A DNA stretch of 62,170 nt, the filler included, from Globobulimina sp. (Eukaryota): assembly GCA_003354225.1 (NCBI GenBank). It is 20 parts of 20 records of this genome, joined end to end, with 100 filler letters (N's around TTAATTAATTAA, not from the genome) between each part and the next. Parts side by side here need not be neighbours in the genome. Positions count along the whole stretch, not along the records: positions 37,378 to 40,390 come from PIVH01004021.1; 19 more parts are not named here. One strand, written 5' to 3'. Below, piece by piece: positions 2 through 44,471 of the stretch; the first letter of the stretch is position 1; every line of letters begins with the position of its first letter. The translations under genes and the position numbers were made by a program. Under the pieces are notes generated by a model, which was not told the origin of the DNA, ran no database searches, and was given only the letters and a program-made list of their open reading frames with translations.

Positions 2-2560
2 CTTCTTTACATTTATTGTTAATCCAAGATTTGTGAAACAATTTGCAATAACATTAGCATCAGTAACAATGTCAGATTGTTCGGAAACAGATTCTGCTTT
101 TTTCACATATGCTAAGTCATCTGCATAACCAATGCAGCAAGAGCCAGGAGACAAATTGAGTTGTAAAGCTGGCGCTGAGTAAGCATTGAAAAGCATAGGT
201 CCCAGCACTGAACCTTGTGGAACGCCTGAAATAACTTCACGTTTGGAAGACAGAGCCCCATTGACACGAACAAATTGTCTGCGCTCAGTGAGATAGGAAC
301 GAAGCCAGCGCAGGGCTCCAGATGGTATCATGTAGTTAGTTTCCAAAGAAGTGAGCAGACGACCAACAGGCACTTTATCAAATGCTTTGGAAAGATCGAA
401 GAATATCCCACATACTTTAGTAGTGCCAGAGCATTGATTGAAGTTATTAAGTATGCAGTATTCTAGCATTGCAATTGCATCTTCTGTAGATCGACAGCGC
501 CTGAATCCATATTGCAATTGTGGCAACTTGTCATCAATCATTGGTCCTAGATTTCTTGCAAAACATCGTTCAGCAATCTTCGAAATTATACATAGCAGGG
601 ACACTGGTCGATAATCAGCTGGATTTGACGAATTTTTGACCTTTGGTATGGGAGTTACAATGGCCAATTTCCATTCGGAAGGGACAATTCCTTCAGCAAA
701 TGAACGATTGATTAGAAGTGTGACAGACGAAGCAATTACAACTGAAGATTCACATAACATTCTGGCTGTAATGCCATCAGTTCCGTTCGATTTTGTAACA
801 TCTAACGAAGACAGTTGTTCACACACCCATTCTTCATCAGCTAACCATTCTGCATTAATATCAATACTGCCAGATTGCGGAATAGGGCCATCAATTCTGT
901 TGTAAACAGTGTCATATTGGTCAGCCAAAGCATTAGCTTTCTCTGCATCAGAAACTGCATTTCCATGTTCAGTGATGAGATCAGGCATAACACTATGGAT
1001 AGAACGCCCAGTGACACGTTTGATGGTTTTCCAGTATGAGGCTGAATCCTCACAATTCTCAAATTGTTCAGTAAAGAATTTTCTCTTCGCTTCTAAAATG
1101 GTTTTCTTCACTTTCTTTCGCAGTTGTTTGAACTTTGCAGCAGTTTGAGGTGTTTGAGTTGATCTCCATTGTCGAAATGCAGTGTCACGTTGTCGAATGA
1201 GTCTTTTGATGCATCGATTGAACCATGTTTTGCCAGCTCTCTTGACAGAAACAAGTTTCCTTTCAATATGACACTCTGCTGCTTGAAGAAAAAGCTTTTT
1301 CCAGATATTCCAAGCATCATCAACGCTTTCAGCAAGCATGACAGCCGAATTCAGATCAAGTTGGATCAAGCAATCACAGAAAGCTGTCCAGTCAGCAGAC
1401 CCATAAAGCCACGCTGAACGTTTCCCTTGTGGTATTGGACGGCATTGTGCAGTTGCATGACACCATATTTCTGCATGATAGTTTTCTATGGGAGCAGCCA
1501 AACCCCAAGGTAGCTGAGTGAATGAGAAAACTAAATCAATTGAACGATTTTGATGTGTAGGAACATCAACAAGTTGTTGGAGACCGAATGGTACAGTCAA
1601 TTGACTAACTTTATCAAGTTCTGTATGTGAATCCCAATTGAGGTCGCCCATCAAAATTAGCTCAGGTATTCGATCATCAAGACCAGACAAAAAGTTTGAG
1701 ATGGCATCAACAAATAAATCTTCATTTGATTGTGGTGGTCGATACACAGAGCTTAGTAATAATAAACCAGCCTGTGTCTTCATCTGAATAGTAATCAGTT
1801 CCACATCAGGTGTATGTCGAAGTTGAGTAGGGAAATAATCAGATTTACAATAGATTGCTACCCCACCACCATTTTCATTCCGATCACGTCTGAACAGAAC
1901 ATATCCAGGGATTTCAAAATTGTCCGTAATACTTGTGCCAAGTTTCGTTTCTTGTAGACAGAATGCAGCATAATCAAAGGACAAAATACGAGCATAAACA
2001 TCCAAAAACTTCCCTCTCAGTGAGTTAACATTAGCAGATCCAATAAGAATTTTGCCTTGAGGTGGGGTTTTCGGGTTAGGTGGTTCAGGTATGGGATCGT
2101 TTGTGTCAAAAGAGAAATTGAAACCAGAAAGTAGATTGGGAACATAGAGATCCACATCCGTACATTTTTCTGAACAATAATATAAACGTCTACCCTTTCT
2201 TGTCATGATTAAATCAGGTCCATTAAGTCCAGAACAAGTCGAGTGAACTTTAGCAAAACAGACAGAGCATGTGACAGGTCTTGCACGACCATCAAGACGA
2301 TTTTGGCAAACGTTACACATAGTGGAAGTAGGTCCAGGATTAGGCGAAATATCACCACATAATAGCAGCAAGAAAAAAGCATGAAAAGTGTCTTTTGAAG
2401 TGGAACGAATACGTCTTTTGTTCGCTTGACAAATAAATGAAGGGTCATAGGGTAATGAGGGAGACACCTCTGCCTTTGTCAATAAACGAGTCTCGCTAGG
2501 CACACAGATAACGTTATAGGCAGCAAAGACAATGAGCAAAATGAAAGAAAACCGGTCCAT
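2..2560 (-). mobile_element. Non-LTR retrotransposon ORF (CR1/L2-like): 2A-like motif, PHD finger, AP endonuclease and reverse transcriptase; 3' end cut by the window start
   Basis: Hand translation from the ATG at 2560; the frame appears open to the window edge, which would explain its absence from the ORF track. Motifs in order: LLLLCGDISPNPGP; PHD-like CNVC...CSVC...HSTC...C; APE motifs SANVNSL, CLQETKL, RRDRNENGGGVAIY, VYRPP, MGDLN; RT motifs YRPVSLL, QYGFR, FFDLSKAFD, GVPQGSVLGP, GYADD. Confidence 0.93.
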
Positions 2561-34808: not shown

Positions 34809-35843
34809 ATGCCCATACGTTTACGAATAACTATTCACTTAAAAGTGGATAAATGTTCACAAGTATTCAAATTCCCAAAATGTTTCAAAGTATTTGCATG
34901 GACTTCGATCAGCGAAATCGCGCAACGAATACAGAGCGCGACTGGAATAGCGGCAGACACACAACGACTATTTTATCGCGGTACAGAAATAACATCGAAT
35001 CACACTCTCTCATATTATGGTATAACCCATGGGAGTTGCATCTATCTGCAATGTGGCAAAGCAGACGCTATTCATCCAATCGTTGTGCATGGAATTAGTA
35101 TCACTCCGTCGGAAGAACATAAGGTATTAATTAAAGAATGTAACGATGGATTAGTAAGCGGCAAAAAACCAATATCGTCAGGTTACGGTGAAGGAGGAAG
35201 TTATGTTTTATTCAACAACAGAAATGAAAAAATGGCTGTATTTAAACCATTGGATGAAGAAGCCGGATGTCACAAATCTCACAATCTTACAGCCACTCAG
35301 ATGATAAATGATTACGGTATAAAGCCCGGTGAATGTTATTTGCGAGAGATTGCAGCATATTTAATTGATTCAAAAATCCCCTGTACTCTGAAAGTGGAAA
35401 TAGTTTCTGATCTGTTTCCGAAACCAGATGAAAATGTGCGAGGAAAAACAGTTTTTGCCAAAGTCGGTTCACTGCAAAAGTTTATGGTTGGTGAGGTAGT
35501 GGAAAATTTTGGAACTGCATTTTTTACCAATTTGCCCATTCGACAAGTGCATAAAATTGGAGTTTTAGACATTCGCATTCTAAATTGTGACCGAAATGGA
35601 GGTAATTTATTGCTGGCAAAGGACGAGTATTATATTGAAGATAAAAAGTATTATAATTATGAATTAATTCCCATCGATCATGGATTGACATTCCCAGAAA
35701 AACTGAATATTACAAGTGATCATCGCATCGGCTGTATCCCGCACCACCGCCGCAACCAAATGGGTTGCTACGTAATGATACGACCGATGCGGAGATGTAT
35801 ATGCCGAGCATTGGGTGTTGAAACTGTATTTTATTTTATTTAA
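34809..35843 (+). CDS. Ubiquitin-like-domain type II PI4-kinase (PI4K-gamma-like), apparently C-terminally truncated
   Basis: Ubl segment TGIAADTQRLFYRG...TLSYYGI; GEGGSY, AVFKPLDEE, YLREIAAYLID, KVGSLQKF, VHKIGVLDIRILNCDRNGGNLL, LIPIDHGLTFP. Confidence 0.85.
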   Translation: MPIRLRITIHLKVDKCSQVFKFPKCFKVFAWTSISEIAQRIQSATGIAADTQRLFYRGTEITSNHTLSYYGITHGSCIYLQCGKADAIHPIVVHGISITPSEEHKVLIKECNDGLVSGKKPISSGYGEGGSYVLFNNRNEKMAVFKPLDEEAGCHKSHNLTATQMINDYGIKPGECYLREIAAYLIDSKIPCTLKVEIVSDLFPKPDENVRGKTVFAKVGSLQKFMVGEVVENFGTAFFTNLPIRQVHKIGVLDIRILNCDRNGGNLLLAKDEYYIEDKKYYNYELIPIDHGLTFPEKLNITSDHRIGCIPHHRRNQMGCYVMIRPMRRCICRALGVETVFYFI

Positions 35844-37005: not shown

Positions 37006-37377
37006 ATTTTTTAGTTATTTTGCCGTGTCAGACTTCTAGGGCTCATCAACTATTTTTTTTGATGATTTAATTCTTTTTTCCTTTTGAGTTGTTGAAAGCC
37101 CATAAATCTCAAATCCATGACACAATATGTGATGAGAACCATATGAATTATTTCCCGTGATATATATTCTGAACATTCTATATGATTTATTACAATTTGA
37201 AATGTTCCATGAATGAGATTGTTTTGCTGCATTAATTGTTGTATCATTTGTATGTTTTTTGAGAAGCTCCCAATTTGNNNNNNNNNNNNNNNNNNNNNNN
37301 NNNNNNNNNNNNNNNNNNNNNTTAATTAATTAANNNNNNNNNNNNNNNNNNNNNNNNNNNNNNNNNNNNNNNNNNNN

Positions 37378-37612
37378 GACCATTAGCGCGGTATTGAAAC
37401 CACTTGCACTGCCATCCTACAATTTGCCCCGCACTACCAAGCCGAGTATCGTTTTCACTTAATTTAATATGATATTCAACACCAGGCTGATTCTTTAATT
37501 CTTTCAGTGGTCCCAAAAATCCAAATTGGCGGCGTACAATACTCCGACATAGTTTTTCAAAATTATCAGTATCTGCCCCCGAAAGGCTTTTAAATCTACT
37601 CCAATCCAACAT
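37378..37612 (-). CDS. Bacterial protein beginning with an Mrr-like/Avs4-type nuclease domain, cut by the contig end
   Basis: W..FK......NFEKLC...KNQPGVE...IVGWQCKWF; AGGAG RBS overlapping the upstream stop codon. Confidence 0.7.
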
Positions 37613-37626
37613 AATAGACACAACTC

Positions 37627-38007
37627 CTAATCCTTATTCTCTGGATGGTAATGGGTAGAAAACACTTCGACCTTTGCGCCCTGATGGACAAGTAAGCTAA
37701 CAAGAGCATTAAGATCATCATCTGAGGATATTCGAATTTCATTGCCCTGTTGCTCTATATGCATTTCATATAGGAGTTGTCCTAACTGCCGAGGCGATAG
37801 GTAAAAGAGGTTTTTCTTGCTAAGATAATCGAGCACTTCTGAGTCAAAACGATCGGCATCCACATCGAAATTCTCATTGTCTTCAAGAAAACCTGTCAAT
37901 GATTCCACCATAGATTTGAACTCTTCAGCATCTACCACATTTTTAAAACTGCCTATGATAACTAAATTTAGAGAGTGCTCAGCCCCGTAACTTTGCCAAA
38001 TCTTCAT
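37627..38007 (-). CDS. Small conserved bacterial protein (DUF6375-like, from recollection)
   Basis: MKIWQSYGAEHSLNLVIIGSF...GAKVEVFSTH; AAGGA RBS; start overlaps the radical SAM gene by 29 nt. Confidence 0.75.
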   Translation of the reverse strand: MKIWQSYGAEHSLNLVIIGSFKNVVDAEEFKSMVESLTGFLEDNENFDVDADRFDSEVLDYLSKKNLFYLSPRQLGQLLYEMHIEQQGNEIRISSDDDLNALVSLLVHQGAKVEVFSTHYHPENKD

Positions 38008-38926
38008 GAATTTTCCTTTTCGAATTTAATTTAGAAAACGCCATTAATATACCATCACCACCAATCTCGGATCCCGATTTGTCAAATGATGTACGTTTCA
38101 ATACGCCATTGGCATCGATATGAGCAAACGCGAGGTTATTAGATTCATTCTCAAGCGCACATAGGTTGTCAACCATGTCCTTGTAATTAATGCTAATAGA
38201 GAGCCTTACGTTTCCTTTATAATTTGCAACCCATGCGCATAAACGCTCCAAGGTTGCAGCATCAATTTGCTTACCAAAACCAATAGGTTCTTCGGGGAGT
38301 AGAAGTAACTCGGCTGCACCGCAGGCCTCTGCCACTTGAACTACGGCACTAAGGTCTCCAATGGTTTTGTTGTTAATGATACAATTAATCCCAAATGGAA
38401 TACGTCCCGTGAGTAAGGCTAAATTGCGTTTCAACTCTTCAAAGAAACGACCCCGGATGCTTTCGTAATTTAGCCCAATACCATCCATACTCACACGCAT
38501 GAAGTTGACCGTATGTTGTAACTGAAGAACTAATTTATCCGATAGCGTATGACCATGGGTCGTCAAACTGATTGCTAAACCGGTTTCTTGTTGTCCAAAC
38601 TTGCAGAGATCTACTAAGTCTGGATGGAGAGTGGGTTCCCCGCCTCCAAATCCAACACCGAAACACCCAGCGTTATCCAATTCTAGCATCCATTGTTTTA
38701 CGAGTTTCTTAGGTAAGCTGGCTATATGTTTTGGTGCATAACAATGTGTACACGACAAATCACATGCATTGGTGAGTGCAATTGAGATCTGCCGAGGACA
38801 TGTTGTCCAGGAGGAAGGTTGAGGAATATGCTCATCCAGCAGAATATTAGTACCGCTTTTGCGTTCAAACAGGTGAATACCATCAGGCCCCCTTCTTACT
38901 TTTATGAAAGTTTCCTCAATCACCAA
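37979..38926 (-). CDS. Radical SAM protein
   Basis: LTNACDLSCTHCYA (CxxxCxxC), GFGGGEPTLHP, SLTTHG, RVSMDG; AAGGA RBS before the TTG start. Confidence 0.93.
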   Translation of the reverse strand: MVIEETFIKVRRGPDGIHLFERKSGTNILLDEHIPQPSSWTTCPRQISIALTNACDLSCTHCYAPKHIASLPKKLVKQWMLELDNAGCFGVGFGGGEPTLHPDLVDLCKFGQQETGLAISLTTHGHTLSDKLVLQLQHTVNFMRVSMDGIGLNYESIRGRFFEELKRNLALLTGRIPFGINCIINNKTIGDLSAVVQVAEACGAAELLLLPEEPIGFGKQIDAATLERLCAWVANYKGNVRLSISINYKDMVDNLCALENESNNLAFAHIDANGVLKRTSFDKSGSEIGGDGILMAFSKLNSKRKIHEDLAKLRG

Positions 38927-39005: not shown

Positions 39006-39299
39006 TTAGACATGGTATTCATTGAATTGCATACCGTGGCTGACAGGGAAGTTATTGTTCTTTGCTTCAACTACAGCCACAGGGACGCCAGGTTCCTGGT
39101 AGAGTACATAATCCGCATACTTCTTCTTTTTCTTATTCCTGGATGACATGTTGCCCCGGACAATGATGGGGCCAGGTGTAAGCGCTACTTCACGGCGAAT
39201 TTGTGTCAACTGATCCCAACCGGCATCTTTAATCGCAGGCGTGATGAACTGATCGCAGATATCTATTTCACTGAGGTCTTTTTTGTCGAAATTATCCAA
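39006..39299 (-). pseudogene. hsdR: Truncated type I restriction enzyme R subunit (EcoEI-like N-terminus)
   Basis: KKDLSEIDICDQFITPAIKDAGWD...IRREV..T.G.IIVRG...ADYVLY..PGVPVAVVEAK.N...V..GMQ, then an abrupt stop after 97 aa. Confidence 0.88.
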
Positions 39300-39547: not shown

Positions 39548-39770
39548 TTATACGGTTTTAAATACTTGTTCACGATGATAGGCCATAAATGGTTCATGCT
39601 CAGGAACAAGATTAACTGACATAGCTTCCATAATTCCCAAAACTTCCAACTTCTGTAATAAAGATGAAATTATGATGCTACCAGATTCTGAAAAAGTTAT
39701 GAGCCCTTGATCAAATGCACGATCTACTGTTGGTATTAATAATAATCCGTTGAACTTATTTATAGATCTT
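39548..39770 (-). pseudogene. HNH endonuclease C-terminal remnant
   Basis: Hand translation: NKFNGLLLIPTVDRAFDQGLITFSESGSIIISS...FMAYHREQVFKTV and stop; no N-terminal half before an upstream in-frame stop. Confidence 0.75.
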
Positions 39771-40231
39771 TTATGCTTAAAAATTAATGAGGGAAATTGA
39801 AATATATCATTTCAACAAGTTACAAATTTTAGCATAAATCATTGGGCTTAAAATTTGAATTGTCATTTTATTATAAATAAAAAACGAACAGTTTATATGA
39901 ATTAAAAATAAATATGAAATGGATTGATTATCATAGTATGAATTATGAAAAATTAATTAGTTTTCAACCTTTTTTATTTAGTTCGGAAAGTAAGTGAGGC
40001 AACCCAAGACTTTAGATAACTTGCATTTTGGTGACTTTAAGTTATAGCGGAAAACTGTTTCGATTTGTATCCGTATCTTAAAAATTTCCAAGTGTTGACT
40101 ATGTCTATCTATCAGCTGGGTTGGCCTACGTTTTAAGGGTGTTGACTATTATTAATAGGGCTCCCTTAAACATTTGGTACAAATTTCTCCAAGAGTTTTT
40201 TATTTTCCAGTTGATTAGAAAATCAGAATTT

Positions 40232-40390
40232 TTATAATTGTTTTTTTGTTAATGTAGTAATCTTTTTTCCAGCCGGGAGTTTCTTTATTTTAAATTCAAG
40301 TTTTAGAGCTTCACTTTTTGTCAAACTATCTTTAAAAGCCGCCAGTTCAACTGGGAGGTGTGCTGCTGTGTACTTAGATGCTTTGCCTTG
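40232..40390 (-). CDS. GIY-YIG nuclease (UPF0213/YazA-like), C-terminal part
   Basis: Hand translation: QGKASKYTAAHLPVELAAFKDSLTKSEALKLEFKIKKLPAGKK. Confidence 0.8.
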   Translation of the reverse strand, partial: QGKASKYTAAHLPVELAAFKDSLTKSEALKLEFKIKKLPAGKKITTLTKKQL

Positions 40391-40490
40391 NNNNNNNNNN
40401 NNNNNNNNNNNNNNNNNNNNNNNNNNNNNNNNNNTTAATTAATTAANNNNNNNNNNNNNNNNNNNNNNNNNNNNNNNNNNNNNNNNNNNN

Positions 40491-42074
40491 AATATATCTC
40501 ATATTCGACCTGAACTGGATCGAAGGTACTCGCTACAGTTTAATACCGGCGCCGGAATGGAAGGAAATGTTGATGTGGAAGCACGTGCACTTGCTACTAA
40601 ACCGGTTGTTGATGAATATACATTTTCAGAATGCGAGCAGAAATATTTAGGTTGGAACAGAGACTCTTTTGGCGATTTATCCTTTGATGAAAGCAGAAAG
40701 AAAGTTATTTGCGAGAATAAGGAGTATGAGCATGATTTGAGACATTTGAATATGGGCTGTTGGCATGTTTTTGATAACAAAGGCAAAAATTATGTATGTT
40801 TACTCAGGAATTTATATGGATTTGTGTCTGGTGATAATAAGTTGCATTTTGTTGGGTATTGTAAACACAAATTGTATGCGATGGCGGATGAAATAATGCG
40901 AGATATATACTCCGCATTCAATGGAAACAACCCAGAACTTGTAAAGTATCCATTATATTTGGATTTTGTTGCGGATGAGAATGGAAAAAACAATGTGAGT
41001 GTTGATGGCGTAAAATACAAAGATAATAATCACGATATTTGGTATTATGACAACAGCCATCAATGCGAATCACATAAAAAGAATGATTTGCAACATATTG
41101 GTAATCCGTGGCATTGTTTTGGACATATTGAATATTACTATCATATCGCACATCGATTAGGAATCAGCATTAATAATTATAACACCACTGTGGTTATGTC
41201 GCAATTTTCAAATTATAACTTTGGTAGAAATACAACACCGATTTATCACTTTTTTACGCCTTTCTTTAAAAACATTATTAATAAACCGGTGGTGAATGAG
41301 ATGGGCAGTAATGATAAAAAACCATTTTACATCAAACAAATGATAATCGATCATCGACTCGCCAAAGGTTGGGGATATGGCACAATTTGGAAAAGCTCAG
41401 AGGTGAAAGCATTTGATTTGGACGAAGCGTGTGACAGCAAACAAAAACATTTGCGAAGATCACAAATAATGTTAGAAATGCAAAGGGATATGATACACTT
41501 TTATGACTCGACTGCTTTTTATGCAAATTATGATTGGCTGAATGAGATAAAAAATATGAAAGGAAGTAATAAATTGGACACTCATAATATTAATATAAAT
41601 GATATGGGGACATTAAAGGAAAAGAAATTAATATTCATAGCAAGCAGATGGATGGATGGTATTTGTAGATATCGCTGCATTGCAAATGGAAAAGAATTAA
41701 AAAATAAACTTATTCAATTATTTCCGAATGATATTGTTATTTACGGCAATCCCGGAACTGTGTCCTTCAGAGCGCAGTATCATTTATTTCAAAATACAGA
41801 GATATTTGTTGGAGTGCATGGAGCTGCTTTTTTGATGGCATCTTTATTTATGCAATCGGATACATTTAAATTTGAAATAACAATGGGTGACAATCAAAGT
41901 AAAGCAGCAAATTCATTGGGTATTGTTTCAATGTTTGGTGGCAGACAATCGTATGCCAGGTATCATTGTAATGGCTGTCAAGCTAAACGTGGACAAAAAC
42001 CATCCAAAATAAATGTAAATCTGGTTACTGAGAAAGTAATGACTGCATTGAATAATATACGCCACATAAATTAA
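40491..42074 (+). CDS. Glycosyltransferase family 61-like protein, 5'-partial
   Basis: GNPWHCF near the middle; C-terminal SFRAQYHLFQNTEIFVGVHGAAF..SLFM......FEI. Confidence 0.8.
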   Translation, partial: NISHIRPELDRRYSLQFNTGAGMEGNVDVEARALATKPVVDEYTFSECEQKYLGWNRDSFGDLSFDESRKKVICENKEYEHDLRHLNMGCWHVFDNKGKNYVCLLRNLYGFVSGDNKLHFVGYCKHKLYAMADEIMRDIYSAFNGNNPELVKYPLYLDFVADENGKNNVSVDGVKYKDNNHDIWYYDNSHQCESHKKNDLQHIGNPWHCFGHIEYYYHIAHRLGISINNYNTTVVMSQFSNYNFGRNTTPIYHFFTPFFKNIINKPVVNEMGSNDKKPFYIKQMIIDHRLAKGWGYGTIWKSSEVKAFDLDEACDSKQKHLRRSQIMLEMQRDMIHFYDSTAFYANYDWLNEIKNMKGSNKLDTHNININDMGTLKEKKLIFIASRWMDGICRYRCIANGKELKNKLIQLFPNDIVIYGNPGTVSFRAQYHLFQNTEIFVGVHGAAFLMASLFMQSDTFKFEITMGDNQSKAANSLGIVSMFGGRQSYARYHCNGCQAKRGQKPSKINVNLVTEKVMTALNNIRHIN

Positions 42075-43856: not shown

Positions 43857-44471
43857 ATGCATTGTAATTATGGTTCAGTCAACATTAATATTGATGCATT
43901 TCAAAATCATATCCTTACATGGAACGAAACATTTATTACAATATTGGATAATCAGTCAATGTGCTTTCCAGTACCGTCAAATTCATCAAACAGAACATTT
44001 CATAGTATCAACGTTAGCAATATCAGCTCAGCGACAGCAGCTACGTGTTGTGTAATTTGTGCAACAGAACTTATGAACTCAAGCACCAATATGCCGAACG
44101 TTGGAATAAGACCGACAGCACGAAGTAGACAGACATTATGTCCACAGAATCTAACATGTGGCCATCAACATTTATTCCATGAACGATGTTTACAATCATG
44201 GCTCAATATAAAGTCAGAATGTCCAGTATGTCGACAACAATCATCAAACCCTTTGTGCTCATTACCACGAAGGATTTCTGAAACCAGAGCTAGACAAAGA
44301 GCGGCTGCGAGGGAAATATACAGAGAATCACTCCGCGGCCGCGACCCGATGCAATCATATACAATCACAATGCGTGAATCCGAATGCAAATCTGGCCCAT
44401 TTATTTTCCTTGCAATTGCTTGCTGTTTAATTATTTTCATAGTGCTAATGTCATTATTGAAGGTCACATGA
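43857..44471 (+). CDS. RING-H2 zinc finger protein with C-terminal TM anchor
   Basis: CVIC...CGHQHLFHERCLQSWL....ECPVCR; hydrophobic C-terminus. Confidence 0.85.
   Translation: MHCNYGSVNINIDAFQNHILTWNETFITILDNQSMCFPVPSNSSNRTFHSINVSNISSATAATCCVICATELMNSSTNMPNVGIRPTARSRQTLCPQNLTCGHQHLFHERCLQSWLNIKSECPVCRQQSSNPLCSLPRRISETRARQRAAAREIYRESLRGRDPMQSYTITMRESECKSGPFIFLAIACCLIIFIVLMSLLKVT

What the first reader, a model, noticed from the sequence alone, without database searches (positions are those of the whole stretch)
37378..38926. Candidate undescribed anti-phage operon: radical SAM, small DUF6375-like protein and Avs4-like nuclease-headed protein
Seen: three co-directional bacterial genes are tightly coupled. 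The radical SAM (315 aa) overlaps the 126 aa gene by 29 nt, and the third gene's AGGAG RBS overlaps the 126 aa gene's stop. They lie directly downstream of a type I hsdR remnant and an HNH remnant, with a GIY-YIG gene further upstream. Established: defence genes cluster with restriction-modification loci; radical SAM enzymes act in immunity (prokaryotic viperins); Avs4 is a single-gene STAND ATPase with an N-terminal Mrr-like nuclease. From memory, gene 3 (W..FK...NFE.LC...KNQ.G.E...GWQ.K.F) closely follows that Avs4 nuclease pattern. Inference: this is a three-component system in which a radical SAM enzyme and a small partner (substrate, decoy or regulator) control or accompany a large nuclease-NTPase effector. 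I do not recognise this architecture as a named system. Only about 78 aa of gene 3 are visible, so its NTPase domain is a prediction.
Basis: partly seen in the sequence, partly recalled or inferred. Interest (0 to 1): 0.88.

Follow-up and report, generated by a model that had tools for sequence, protein, structure and literature searches.

The report
Known Avs2 anti-phage operon, cut short
The three genes are a truncated copy of an anti-phage operon already published in 2024 (a radical SAM enzyme, a small DUF6375 protein and an Avs2 nuclease-NTPase sensor), so the system is not new, although what its two helper proteins do is still unknown.

Summary
The sequence features are real. On the minus strand lie a 315-aa radical SAM gene, a 126-aa DUF6375 gene that overlaps it by 29 nt, and the first 78 aa of a nuclease-headed gene. 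That third gene is cut by the end of a 3,013-nt contig.

The architecture is not undescribed. It matches the three-gene "KpAvs2 operon" of Béchon et al. 2024 (PMC11564622): Avap1 is the radical SAM protein, Avap2 is the DUF6375 protein, and Avs2 is an Mrr-type nuclease fused to a STAND NTPase and a C-terminal sensor. That paper shows the operon protects E. coli by abortive infection.

Full-length relatives of gene 3 are about 1,370 aa and match Avs2 models, not Avs4. Among 71 genomic DUF6375 loci, the radical SAM gene lies directly upstream in 68 and Avs2 directly downstream in 63.

The window is an artificial chain of about 3-kb contigs. The neighbouring contigs look eukaryotic and are irrelevant to this locus.

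One new lead emerged. Avap1's model is closest to peptide-modifying radical SAM maturases. A complex prediction places Avap2's near-invariant N-terminal tail on Avap1's N-terminal strand and barrel mouth (score 0.61, best control 0.01).

Verdict: a known system, of low interest in itself.

The parts
37979..38926 (-). avap1: radical SAM protein, 315 aa, TTG start
   Evidence: PF04055 E 9.3e-13. CxxxCxxC at C55/C59/C62, GGGEP at 94-98 and C108 are invariant in 53 sequences. AF2 model pLDDT 92.1.
37627..38007 (-). avap2: DUF6375 protein, 126 aa, overlapping avap1 by 29 nt
   Evidence: PF19902 E 3.7e-46. 65 homologues, best 75% identical. AF2 model pLDDT 83.6, with residues 1-11 under 50.
37624..37628 (-). 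AGGAG ribosome-binding site overlapping the avap2 TAG stop, 11 nt before the avs2 ATG
   Evidence: Read directly from the sequence.
37378..37612 (-). avs2 5' fragment: first 78 aa of the Mrr-type nuclease head (FEKLCR, NQPGVEY, GWQCKW), cut by the contig end
   Evidence: Start fixed by alignment with 20 relatives. 46 longer homologues, 37 of them 1345-1551 aa, 51-79% identical over the fragment. 5 of 5 tested are PADLOC Avs2.
39006..39299 (-). Type I restriction hsdR N-terminal remnant, 97 aa
   Evidence: PADLOC REase_I E 2.8e-28 over profile positions 1-90 of 807. NF046051 EcoAI-type E 5.7e-25.
39548..39811 (-). HNH endonuclease remnant (C-terminal part only, no start codon)
   Evidence: PF13391 E 2e-5 over profile positions 34-65 of 66. 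NF045952 E 8e-5. Stop-to-stop frame.
40232..40390 (-).
   Evidence: 0 families in Pfam and NCBIfam at E <= 10. No homologue found.
37278..37377 (.). Artificial join N44-TTAATTAATTAA-N44: end of the contig
40391..40490 (.). Artificial join N44-TTAATTAATTAA-N44: other end of the contig

Best explanation
The locus is a bacterial copy of the published Avap1-Avap2-Avs2 anti-phage operon (the KpAvs2 type). It sits on a 3-kb contig that ends 78 codons into avs2.

Mechanism as reported for KpAvs2 (not tested here):
- The C-terminal sensor of Avs2 binds a phage protein, either large terminase or small proteins such as Ksap1 and Ksap2.
- The STAND NTPase is needed for defence.
- The N-terminal Mrr-type nuclease degrades DNA, and the infected cell arrests (abortive infection).
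- Avap2 is bound to Avs2 both before and after infection and is needed for defence.
- Avap1 is needed against some phages only.

Inferred here:
- Avap1 is a peptide/protein-directed radical SAM enzyme rather than a viperin-like nucleotide enzyme.
- Its likely partner is the near-invariant N-terminal tail of Avap2.

The contig most likely comes from a gammaproteobacterium-like organism mixed into an assembly whose other contigs look eukaryotic.
For: - Family matches: PF04055 and PF19902.
- Homologues of gene 3: 37 of 46 are 1345-1551 aa.
- Avs2 identity of the relatives: 5 of 5 tested hit PADLOC Avs2 PDLC02164 at E 1e-100 to 1e-110. 4 of 4 have NCBIfam Avs2 as best family. The solved Avs2 9o4e is the only PDB hit, at E 3.7e-30.
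- Catalytic motifs: GWQ.KW at residues 66-73 in 9 of 9 relatives and P-loop AGGGKT in 5 of 5. These sit at the same positions as the paper's K71A and K337A mutants.
- Conserved order: in 71 DUF6375 loci from genome contigs, the radical SAM gene is directly upstream in 68 and Avs2 directly downstream in 63. Four of the 8 without Avs2 are cut by a contig end.
- L022 bears the organism name 'Nitrospirae bacterium JdFR-85', which the paper's Fig. 1B legend lists as carrying the operon.
- Paper passages describing the operon, Avap1/Avap2, the protection assays and Avap2-Avs2 co-immunoprecipitation.
- For the inferred Avap1-Avap2 step, see the section on the most novel reading.
Against: - Only 78 aa of avs2 are present, so the NTPase and sensor of this copy are unseen.
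- The relatives fall below NCBIfam's Avs2 equivalog cut-off (272-306 bits against 1000).
- Pfam gives no domain above threshold in the five full-length relatives.
- I could not obtain the KpAvs2 sequences themselves. The link rests on family definitions (the paper's own PF19902 and PF04055 criteria), gene order and the shared JdFR-85 genome name.
- No promoter-like or terminator-like signal above chance on the contig: 6 promoter-like sites against 10.3 expected.
Confidence: 0.93

Rival explanations
1. One reading: an undescribed three-component defence system built around an Avs4-like nuclease-NTPase.
For: The 81-aa fragment's only named hits are weak Avs4 and Avs2 N-terminal matches: PADLOC Avs4 at E 1.2e-3 and NCBIfam Avs4 at E 9.9e-4. 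PADLOC has no model for the DUF6375 protein.
Against: The trio is described, named and tested in PMC11564622. Full-length relatives match Avs2 models over about 930-1350 residues, and match Avs4 only at the first ~120 residues at far below cut-off.
Confidence: 0.03
2. The contig is bacterial DNA transferred into the eukaryote-like genome of the neighbouring contigs and is decaying there, so the operon is a relic.
For: Neighbouring segments encode eukaryote-type proteins: a ubiquitin-PI3/PI4-kinase fusion, RING fingers and GT61. The contig carries two gene remnants (hsdR, HNH) and an AT-rich upstream kilobase.
Against: The joins are artificial N linkers, so adjacency in the window means nothing. 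No eukaryote-type gene lies on the 3,013-nt contig. avap1 and avap2 are intact, with every residue that is invariant across the family alignments, overlapping reading frames and a Shine-Dalgarno site. Remnants of restriction genes are usual in bacterial defence islands (established knowledge).
Confidence: 0.04
3. Mechanistic rival for Avap1: it is a viperin-like enzyme that makes a modified nucleotide which blocks phage replication, acting independently of Avap2.
For: PADLOC pVip models hit at E 7.2e-19 and 6.1e-15. Viperin structures align at Z 21-22, rmsd 2.4 A, over 232-242 residues.
Against: - The NCBIfam viperin equivalog scores 52.4 bits against a cut-off of 180.
- Viperin alignments start only at model residue 39-45. 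The RiPP maturases SkfB (Z 26.1) and SuiB (Z 24.9) rank higher and also span the N-terminal sheet.
- The paper reports no pVip-type products in cells expressing the operon and no NTP-sized pocket in its AlphaFold model (passage).
Confidence: 0.1

Closest known systems
KpAvs2 operon (Avap1, Avap2, Avs2) of Klebsiella pneumoniae S_15PV; Béchon et al., Nat Commun 2024, PMC11564622
   Same: - Same three families in the same order: a radical SAM protein (PF04055), a DUF6375 protein (PF19902) and an Avs2 with an Mrr-type nuclease head. The first two are the paper's own criteria for Avap1 and Avap2.
- The nuclease lysine and P-loop lysine sit at the same positions.
- It also lies next to restriction-gene remnants, as the paper notes for defence neighbourhoods.
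   Different: - This copy is cut after 78 codons of avs2.
- It is a divergent orthologue. Its Avap2 is 40% and its Avap1 45% identical to those of an enterobacterial locus (L029). The nearest DNA match is 73% identical (L001).
- avap1 overlaps avap2 by 29 nt, whereas 39 of 67 measured junctions overlap by 4 nt.
Single-gene Avs2 (EcAvs2; PDB 9o4e; bioRxiv 10.64898/2026.04.30.721860)
   Same: The STAND NTPase and sensor are of Avs2 type: phmmer to 9o4e gives E 3.7e-30 over residues 319-931 of P0066.
   Different: EcAvs2 is described as acting alone. The passages found in that preprint hold 0 occurrences of 'accessory'. NCBIfam's Avs2 equivalog cut-off is not reached by the Avap-associated proteins.
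Avs4 (AVAST type 4)
   Same: A weak likeness of the N-terminal Mrr-type nuclease head (E 1e-3 to 6e-5).
   Different: The NTPase and sensor are Avs2-type. Avs4 scores reach 16-20 bits against a cut-off of 1500.
Prokaryotic viperins (pVip)
   Same: A radical SAM core, a defence context, PADLOC pVip hits and fold Z 21-22.
   Different: It falls below the curated viperin cut-off. It has an extra N-terminal three-stranded sheet that the viperin alignments do not span. The paper found no pVip products.
Peptide-modifying radical SAM maturases SkfB (6efn) and SuiB (5v1s/5v1t)
   Same: These are the best structural matches, and their aligned ranges span Avap1's N-terminal region: Z 26.1 over model residues 6..307 and Z 24.9 over 3..315. 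The predicted docking of a partner's terminal peptide on the N-terminal sheet and barrel mouth resembles how such enzymes hold their precursor peptides. That comparison is from recall and was not tested here.
   Different: There is no SPASM or twitch cysteine set. Only C55, C59, C62 and C108 are invariant cysteines in 53 sequences. Sequence identity is 14-22%. The presumed substrate would be a folded 126-aa protein that stays bound to an immune sensor, not a secreted peptide.

Membership tests
KpAvs2-type operon (Avap1-Avap2-Avs2) | Avap2: a small protein matching PF19902 (DUF6375) next to avs2 | tested here: met
   PF19902 at E 3.7e-46, 157.5 bits against a cut-off of 27.5, over residues 1-124.
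KpAvs2-type operon (Avap1-Avap2-Avs2) | Avap1: a neighbouring protein matching PF04055 (radical SAM) | tested here: met
   PF04055 at 49.1 bits against a cut-off of 29.5. The CxxxCxxC and GGGEP motifs are invariant.
KpAvs2-type operon (Avap1-Avap2-Avs2) | Third gene is an Avs2 with Mrr-type nuclease, STAND NTPase and Avs2 C-terminal sensor | tested here: inconclusive
   Only 78 aa are present in the window. 37 of 46 homologues of the fragment are 1345-1551 aa. 5 of 5 tested are PADLOC Avs2 with a P-loop.
KpAvs2-type operon (Avap1-Avap2-Avs2) | Conserved gene order radical SAM - DUF6375 - Avs2 | tested here: met
   Radical SAM upstream in 68 of 71 loci and Avs2 downstream in 63 of 71. The window has the same order.
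KpAvs2-type operon (Avap1-Avap2-Avs2) | [quoted passage not shown] | not testable with these tools
   Reported for KpAvs2 only (passages). The Avs2 region said to bind Avap2 lies beyond the contig end.
Avs2 (NCBIfam NF041813 equivalog) | Score at or above the curated cut-off of 1000 bits | tested here: not met
   250-306 bits in 4 of 4 full-length relatives, covering the NTPase and middle part only. PADLOC's broader Avs2 models are met.
Avs4 | Match to Avs4 models over the NTPase and sensor | tested here: not met
   There are only N-terminal matches of 16-20 bits against a cut-off of 1500. PADLOC lists no Avs4 hit for the 5 full-length relatives.
Prokaryotic viperin | NCBIfam NF038283 score at or above 180 bits | tested here: not met
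   52.4 bits.
SPASM/twitch radical SAM peptide maturases | C-terminal cysteine set for auxiliary Fe-S clusters | tested here: not met
   The invariant cysteines are C55, C59, C62 and C108 only. Two further columns hold Cys in 34 and 32 of 53 sequences. All NCBIfam SPASM families score far below cut-off.
SPASM/twitch radical SAM peptide maturases | N-terminal peptide-recognition domain that docks the substrate peptide | tested here: inconclusive
   A three-stranded sheet at residues 9-30 falls within the aligned ranges of SkfB and SuiB. The complex model pairs Avap2 residues 1-5 with Avap1 residues 26-31. No experimental test.

The most novel reading that the evidence does not exclude
Avap1 is a RiPP-maturase-like radical SAM enzyme whose substrate, or docking partner, is the flexible N-terminal tail of Avap2 (M-K-[IVL]-W-x-x-[YFH]-G-x-E-H-S). 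On this reading a post-translationally modified small protein tunes a bacterial NLR-like sensor, or recruits a second enzymatic activity to it.

Support:
- The complex model scores 0.61 against 0.01 for the best of 3 controls. That mark was reached by 51 of 78 solved complexes and 2 of 108 mismatched pairs. Partner pLDDT was at least 47 and the runs agreed in at least 32% of contacts.
- The interface is Avap2 residues 1-8 on Avap1 strand 24-32 plus barrel-mouth residues.
- That tail is disordered in the monomer model, yet it is the most conserved block of the family.
- 118 of the 150 best representatives from a word-free search start exactly M[KR][IVL]W.
- 11 of 24 Avap1 interface residues are at least 90% conserved, against 69 of 291 others (p = 0.019).
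- The single locus without a radical SAM gene (L059) lacks the K, W and Y of the tail.
- Two Avs2-less loci keep the tail next to a radical SAM gene.

Against:
- The paper reports that Avap1 is dispensable for defence against SECphi18, so any modification cannot be required for Avap2's core role.
Probability: 0.3. Interest if true: 0.65.

Novelty: already known. Interest (0 to 1): 0.22.

Why it matters
As a discovery it does not matter much. The operon was named, mapped across phyla and shown to protect E. coli in 2024.

Its remaining value lies in the open question that paper states: what Avap1 and Avap2 do. The computations here give a concrete, cheap test. They point to the near-invariant N-terminal tail of Avap2 as the contact with, or substrate of, a peptide-directed radical SAM enzyme. 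If that holds, it would be a case of protein modification chemistry of the RiPP type regulating an NLR-like immune receptor.

The report also flags that this window is a chain of unrelated short contigs, so gene neighbourhood arguments across the N linkers are invalid.

Tried and rejected
- **Whole genome of the window:** none is held.
- **Earlier notes on this genome:** none.
- **GIY-YIG claim:** Pfam at E <= 0.01 and <= 10, NCBIfam at E <= 10 and a homologue search with 'longer' lengths all gave nothing for the 52-aa ORF end. This neither confirms nor excludes the claim, because the fragment is short.
- **Promoters and terminators:** counts were below or near shuffle expectation, so nothing was used.
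- **Solved structure of Avap2:** no PDB sequence match better than E 0.15. The fold searches gave only generic ferredoxin-like matches (Foldseek best E 1.1e-2; VIA best Z 6.6).
- **Co-variation test (do DUF6375 proteins without a radical SAM neighbour lose the tail?):**
  - Two phylum-wide samples of 401 genomes each found only 1 and 3 genomes over the family cut-off, too few to use.
  - 11 'tail-less' representatives begin at an internal Met. In 2 of 2 cases with a longer cluster mate, the mate has the full tail, so I treat them as start miscalls.
  - The test therefore rests on one locus (L059).
- **Shared flanks:** the upstream remnants have no tblastx match in the other loci, so there is no conserved insertion site.
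- **Phage carriage:** no match in 50,697 phage records.
- **Literature:** searches for DUF6375, Avap1/Avap2, KpAvs2 and 'Avs2' + 'radical SAM' found no paper that assigns a function to Avap1 or Avap2. Subscription journals are not covered.
Full report
**What the window is.** The 62,170-base window is not one stretch of genome. It holds 38 runs of exactly 44 N, in pairs set 12 nt apart, which divide it into 20 segments of about 3,013-3,016 nt in descending length. At the two joins I read, the 12 nt are TTAATTAATTAA. The finding lies on the segment 37378-40390 (3,013 nt), and only that segment is its context. Neighbouring segments encode eukaryote-type proteins: a ubiquitin-PI3/PI4-kinase fusion, RING fingers and a GT61 glycosyltransferase. 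No whole genome is held for the window, and no earlier notes exist.

**The observation.** Five features lie on the minus strand of the contig.
- An unassigned ORF end at 40390..40232.
- An HNH remnant at 39811..39548. It matches PF13391 at E 2e-5, over the C-terminal half of the profile only, and has no start codon.
- A 97-aa N-terminal remnant of a type I restriction R subunit at 39299..39006. It matches PADLOC REase_I at E 2.8e-28 over profile positions 1-90 of 807, and EcoAI-type NF046051 at E 5.7e-25.
- A radical SAM gene at 38926..37979, 315 aa, matching PF04055 at E 9.3e-13.
- A DUF6375 gene at 38007..37627, 126 aa, matching PF19902 at E 3.7e-46.

The last two overlap by 29 nt. AGGAG (37628..37624) overlaps the TAG stop of the small gene. 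Alignment with 20 relatives puts the start of gene 3 at ATG 37612 (MLDW...), 11 nt after the AGGAG, so 78 aa are visible before the contig ends.

The 'GIY-YIG' label for the 52-aa ORF end could not be confirmed.

**What gene 3 is.** A search for longer homologues of the fragment gave 46 proteins (of 77 candidates) at 51-79% identity. Of these, 37 are 1345-1551 aa and the other 9 are shorter. Five full-length ones were scanned.
- All five hit PADLOC Avs2 model PDLC02164 at E 1e-100 to 1e-110, over roughly their first 930-1000 residues. Three of the five hit model PDLC02162 over nearly the full length.
- Pfam gave nothing above threshold: a weak NACHT match in 1 of 5 and a weak nSTAND3 match in 2 of 5.
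- NCBIfam names Avs2 as the best family in 4 of 4, but at 250-306 bits against an equivalog cut-off of 1000. It adds a weak Avs4 match confined to the first ~120 residues in 3 of 4.
- The only PDB sequence match is a solved Avs2, 9o4e, at E 3.7e-30.
- The nuclease motif GWQ.KW sits at residues 66-73 in 9 of 9 relatives, and a P-loop AGGGKT with its lysine at 336-338 in 5 of 5.

**Conserved neighbourhood.** A scan of genome contigs with a DUF6375 alignment gave 71 loci from many phyla. I called ORFs in them and searched with the window's radical SAM protein and a full-length Avs2 relative.
- The radical SAM gene lies directly upstream on the same strand in 68 of 71 loci.
- It lies downstream in 2 (L067, L070) and is absent in 1 (L059).
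- Avs2 lies directly downstream in 63 of 71.
- Of the 8 without Avs2: 4 are cut by a contig end (L035, L066, L068, L069); 2 have the reversed pair and no Avs2 (L067, L070); 2 have none within the flank (L058, L063).
- A 4-nt overlap between the first two genes is the commonest junction, in 39 of 67 measured.
- The upstream remnants of the window have no counterpart in the other loci, and the closest operon DNA is 73% identical (L001).
- The small protein is also encoded on 16 of 72,556 plasmid records, 11 of them typed conjugative, and on none of 50,697 phage records.
- On one Vibrio plasmid the avs2 gene is interrupted by an IS3 transposase and lies beside brxL.

**It is already published.** A full-text search for DUF6375 found Béchon et al., Nat Commun 2024 (PMC11564622). 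I read passages of it, not the whole text and not the supplements, which are closed.

[quoted passage not shown] About 5% of Avs2 homologues are associated with Avap2, and most of those also with Avap1. The operon protects E. coli by abortive infection. Defence is lost when the nuclease domain is mutated (K71A is the nuclease mutant the paper names), with the NTPase mutation K337A, or when the C-terminal domain is deleted. Further reported results:
- Avs2 alone protects weakly.
- Avap2 co-immunoprecipitates with Avs2 and is predicted to bind a helical bundle between the nuclease and the NTPase.
- An avap1 stop mutant keeps defence against SECphi18 but loses some defence against T2.
- avap2 could not be deleted.
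- No pVip-type nucleotides were detected, and the roles of Avap1 and Avap2 are stated to be unclear.

One of the genomes in that paper's Fig. 1B legend, Nitrospirae bacterium JdFR-85, has the same name as the record of my locus L022. Searches for Avap1/Avap2, KpAvs2 and Avs2 + radical SAM found no later paper assigning functions to the accessory proteins. A 2026 preprint on the EcAvs2 structure mentions KpAvs2 but has 0 occurrences of 'accessory'.

**Alignments behind the helper-protein analysis.**
- Avap1 alignment A2 holds 53 sequences: the window plus 52 of the 58 radical SAM ORFs of 290-340 aa. I left out L015, L042, L048, L050, L052 and L056.
- Avap2 alignment A3 holds 48 sequences: the window plus 47 of 55. 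I left out L003, L048, L050, L052 and L056, and the three variant loci L059, L067 and L070.

**Avap1.** The invariant residues are the cluster cysteines C55/C59/C62, GGGEP at 94-98 and C108. There is also an N-terminal set (R11, G16, F20, R22, G25, N27, L29) that precedes the radical SAM core. No SPASM or twitch cysteine set is present. The AlphaFold model is confident (pLDDT 92.1, pTM 0.89) and has a three-stranded sheet at residues 9-30 before the barrel.
- Foldseek ranks the RiPP maturases SkfB (6efn, E 2.3e-14) and SuiB first, with viperins next.
- VIA-align gives SkfB Z 26.1 (rmsd 3.3, 287 aligned, model 6..307) and SuiB Z 24.9 (model 3..315).
- Viperins reach Z 21-22 and align only from residue 39-45 onwards.

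**Avap2.** The model (pLDDT 83.6) is a generic ferredoxin-like sandwich with no specific relative: best Z 6.6 and Foldseek E 1.1e-2. Its residues 1-11 are below pLDDT 50.

**A predicted contact between the helpers.** A complex prediction of Avap1 with Avap2 passed the tool's mark. The tool folded the two sequences without my alignments.
- The score was 0.61 (runs 0.61, 0.62, 0.44), against 0.01 for the best of 3 controls.
- That mark was reached by 51 of 78 solved complexes and 2 of 108 mismatched pairs.
- Partner pLDDT was at least 47, and the runs agreed in at least 32% of contacts. The tool warns that the partner's own fold is uncertain.
- The confident interface is Avap2 residues 1-8 against Avap1 residues 22 and 24-32, plus barrel-mouth residues 45-46, 89-90, 118, 120, 141-142, 177, 205-206, 241, 243 and 257.

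This supports binding but does not show it.

Independent observations fit this picture.
- The tail is the most conserved block of Avap2: the commonest residue has a mean fraction of 0.88 over residues 1-10, against 0.32-0.63 in the middle of the protein. That alignment came from loci retrieved with patterns drawn from this very region, so it is biased.
- I therefore ran a word-free HMMER search of 1.84 billion representatives, which gave 357 hits at E <= 1e-3. Of the best 150, 118 begin exactly M[KR][IVL]W, all 118 have H11 and S12, and about 14 more carry close variants.
- Eleven representatives begin at an internal Met. In 2 of 2 with a longer cluster mate, the mate has the full tail, so these are probably start miscalls.
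- On the Avap1 side, 11 of 24 interface residues are at least 90% conserved, against 69 of 291 others (one-sided Fisher p = 0.019). Conservation alternates along strand 24-32.
- The one locus without a radical SAM gene, L059, has a tail lacking K2, W4 and Y7. This is n = 1.
- The two reversed, Avs2-less loci keep MK[VI]W.SYG next to a radical SAM gene. In L067 only the first 49 residues still match DUF6375.

**What weighs against that reading.** The paper's avap1 stop mutant still defends against SECphi18 while Avap2 is required. Avap2's core role therefore cannot depend on modification by Avap1. A free N-terminal peptide laid as an extra strand on an exposed sheet edge is also a common modelling outcome, although three controls scored 0.00-0.01. 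The comparison with leader-peptide docking in RiPP maturases, and the thought that K2 and W4 might be cross-linked as in Lys-Trp cross-linked peptides, come from recall and are speculation.

**Verdict.** However, the system is the known Avap1-Avap2-Avs2 operon, here truncated by a contig end and sitting on a bacterial contig among unrelated contigs that look eukaryotic. Novelty: already known. Interest is low. The one item worth passing on is the testable prediction that Avap2's near-invariant N-terminal tail is the contact or substrate of a peptide-directed Avap1.

Noticed in passing
window 1-62170 (joins e.g. 37278-37377, 40391-40490): The window is 20 short contigs (about 3,013-3,016 nt, in descending length), separated by pairs of 44-N runs set 12 nt apart; at the two joins I read the spacer is TTAATTAATTAA. 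Any neighbourhood argument across a join is invalid.
   Followed up: yes
window 34809-35843 (+), 43857-44471 (+), 40557-42074 (+): Neighbouring contigs encode eukaryote-type proteins: a ubiquitin-PI3/PI4-kinase fusion, a RING-H2 finger protein and a GT61 glycosyltransferase. They have long intron-free ORFs and low GC. The bacterial contig is probably a contaminant or an associated bacterium.
   Followed up: partly
L067:8001-9293 and L070:1674-2677: Two Acidobacteriota loci have the reversed order (a DUF6375-like gene, then a radical SAM gene) and no Avs2. In L067 only the first 49 residues still match DUF6375, and ThyX and a dCMP-deaminase-like gene lie upstream. This may be an Avs2-independent use of the Avap pair.
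   Followed up: partly
L059:7974-12358: An Acidimicrobiales locus has DUF6375 and a split Avs2 but no radical SAM gene. Its DUF6375 lacks the K2/W4/Y7 tail residues. DNA-methylase-like and other ORFs lie upstream.
   Followed up: partly
L081 (Vibrio parahaemolyticus plasmid pLH80-1) 6045-12731: The operon occurs on large Vibrio plasmids: 12 of the 16 plasmid hits, and 11 of the 16 are typed conjugative. In this record avs2 is interrupted by an IS3 transposase and lies next to brxL. All three genes are annotated only as radical SAM, DUF6375 and hypothetical.
   Followed up: partly
P0112 (246 aa) and P0065 (221 aa): One representative holds two DUF6375 stretches in 246 aa. One partial protein joins a DUF6375 piece to ABC-ATPase/SMC-type domains. 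These may be fusions or gene-calling artefacts.
   Followed up: no
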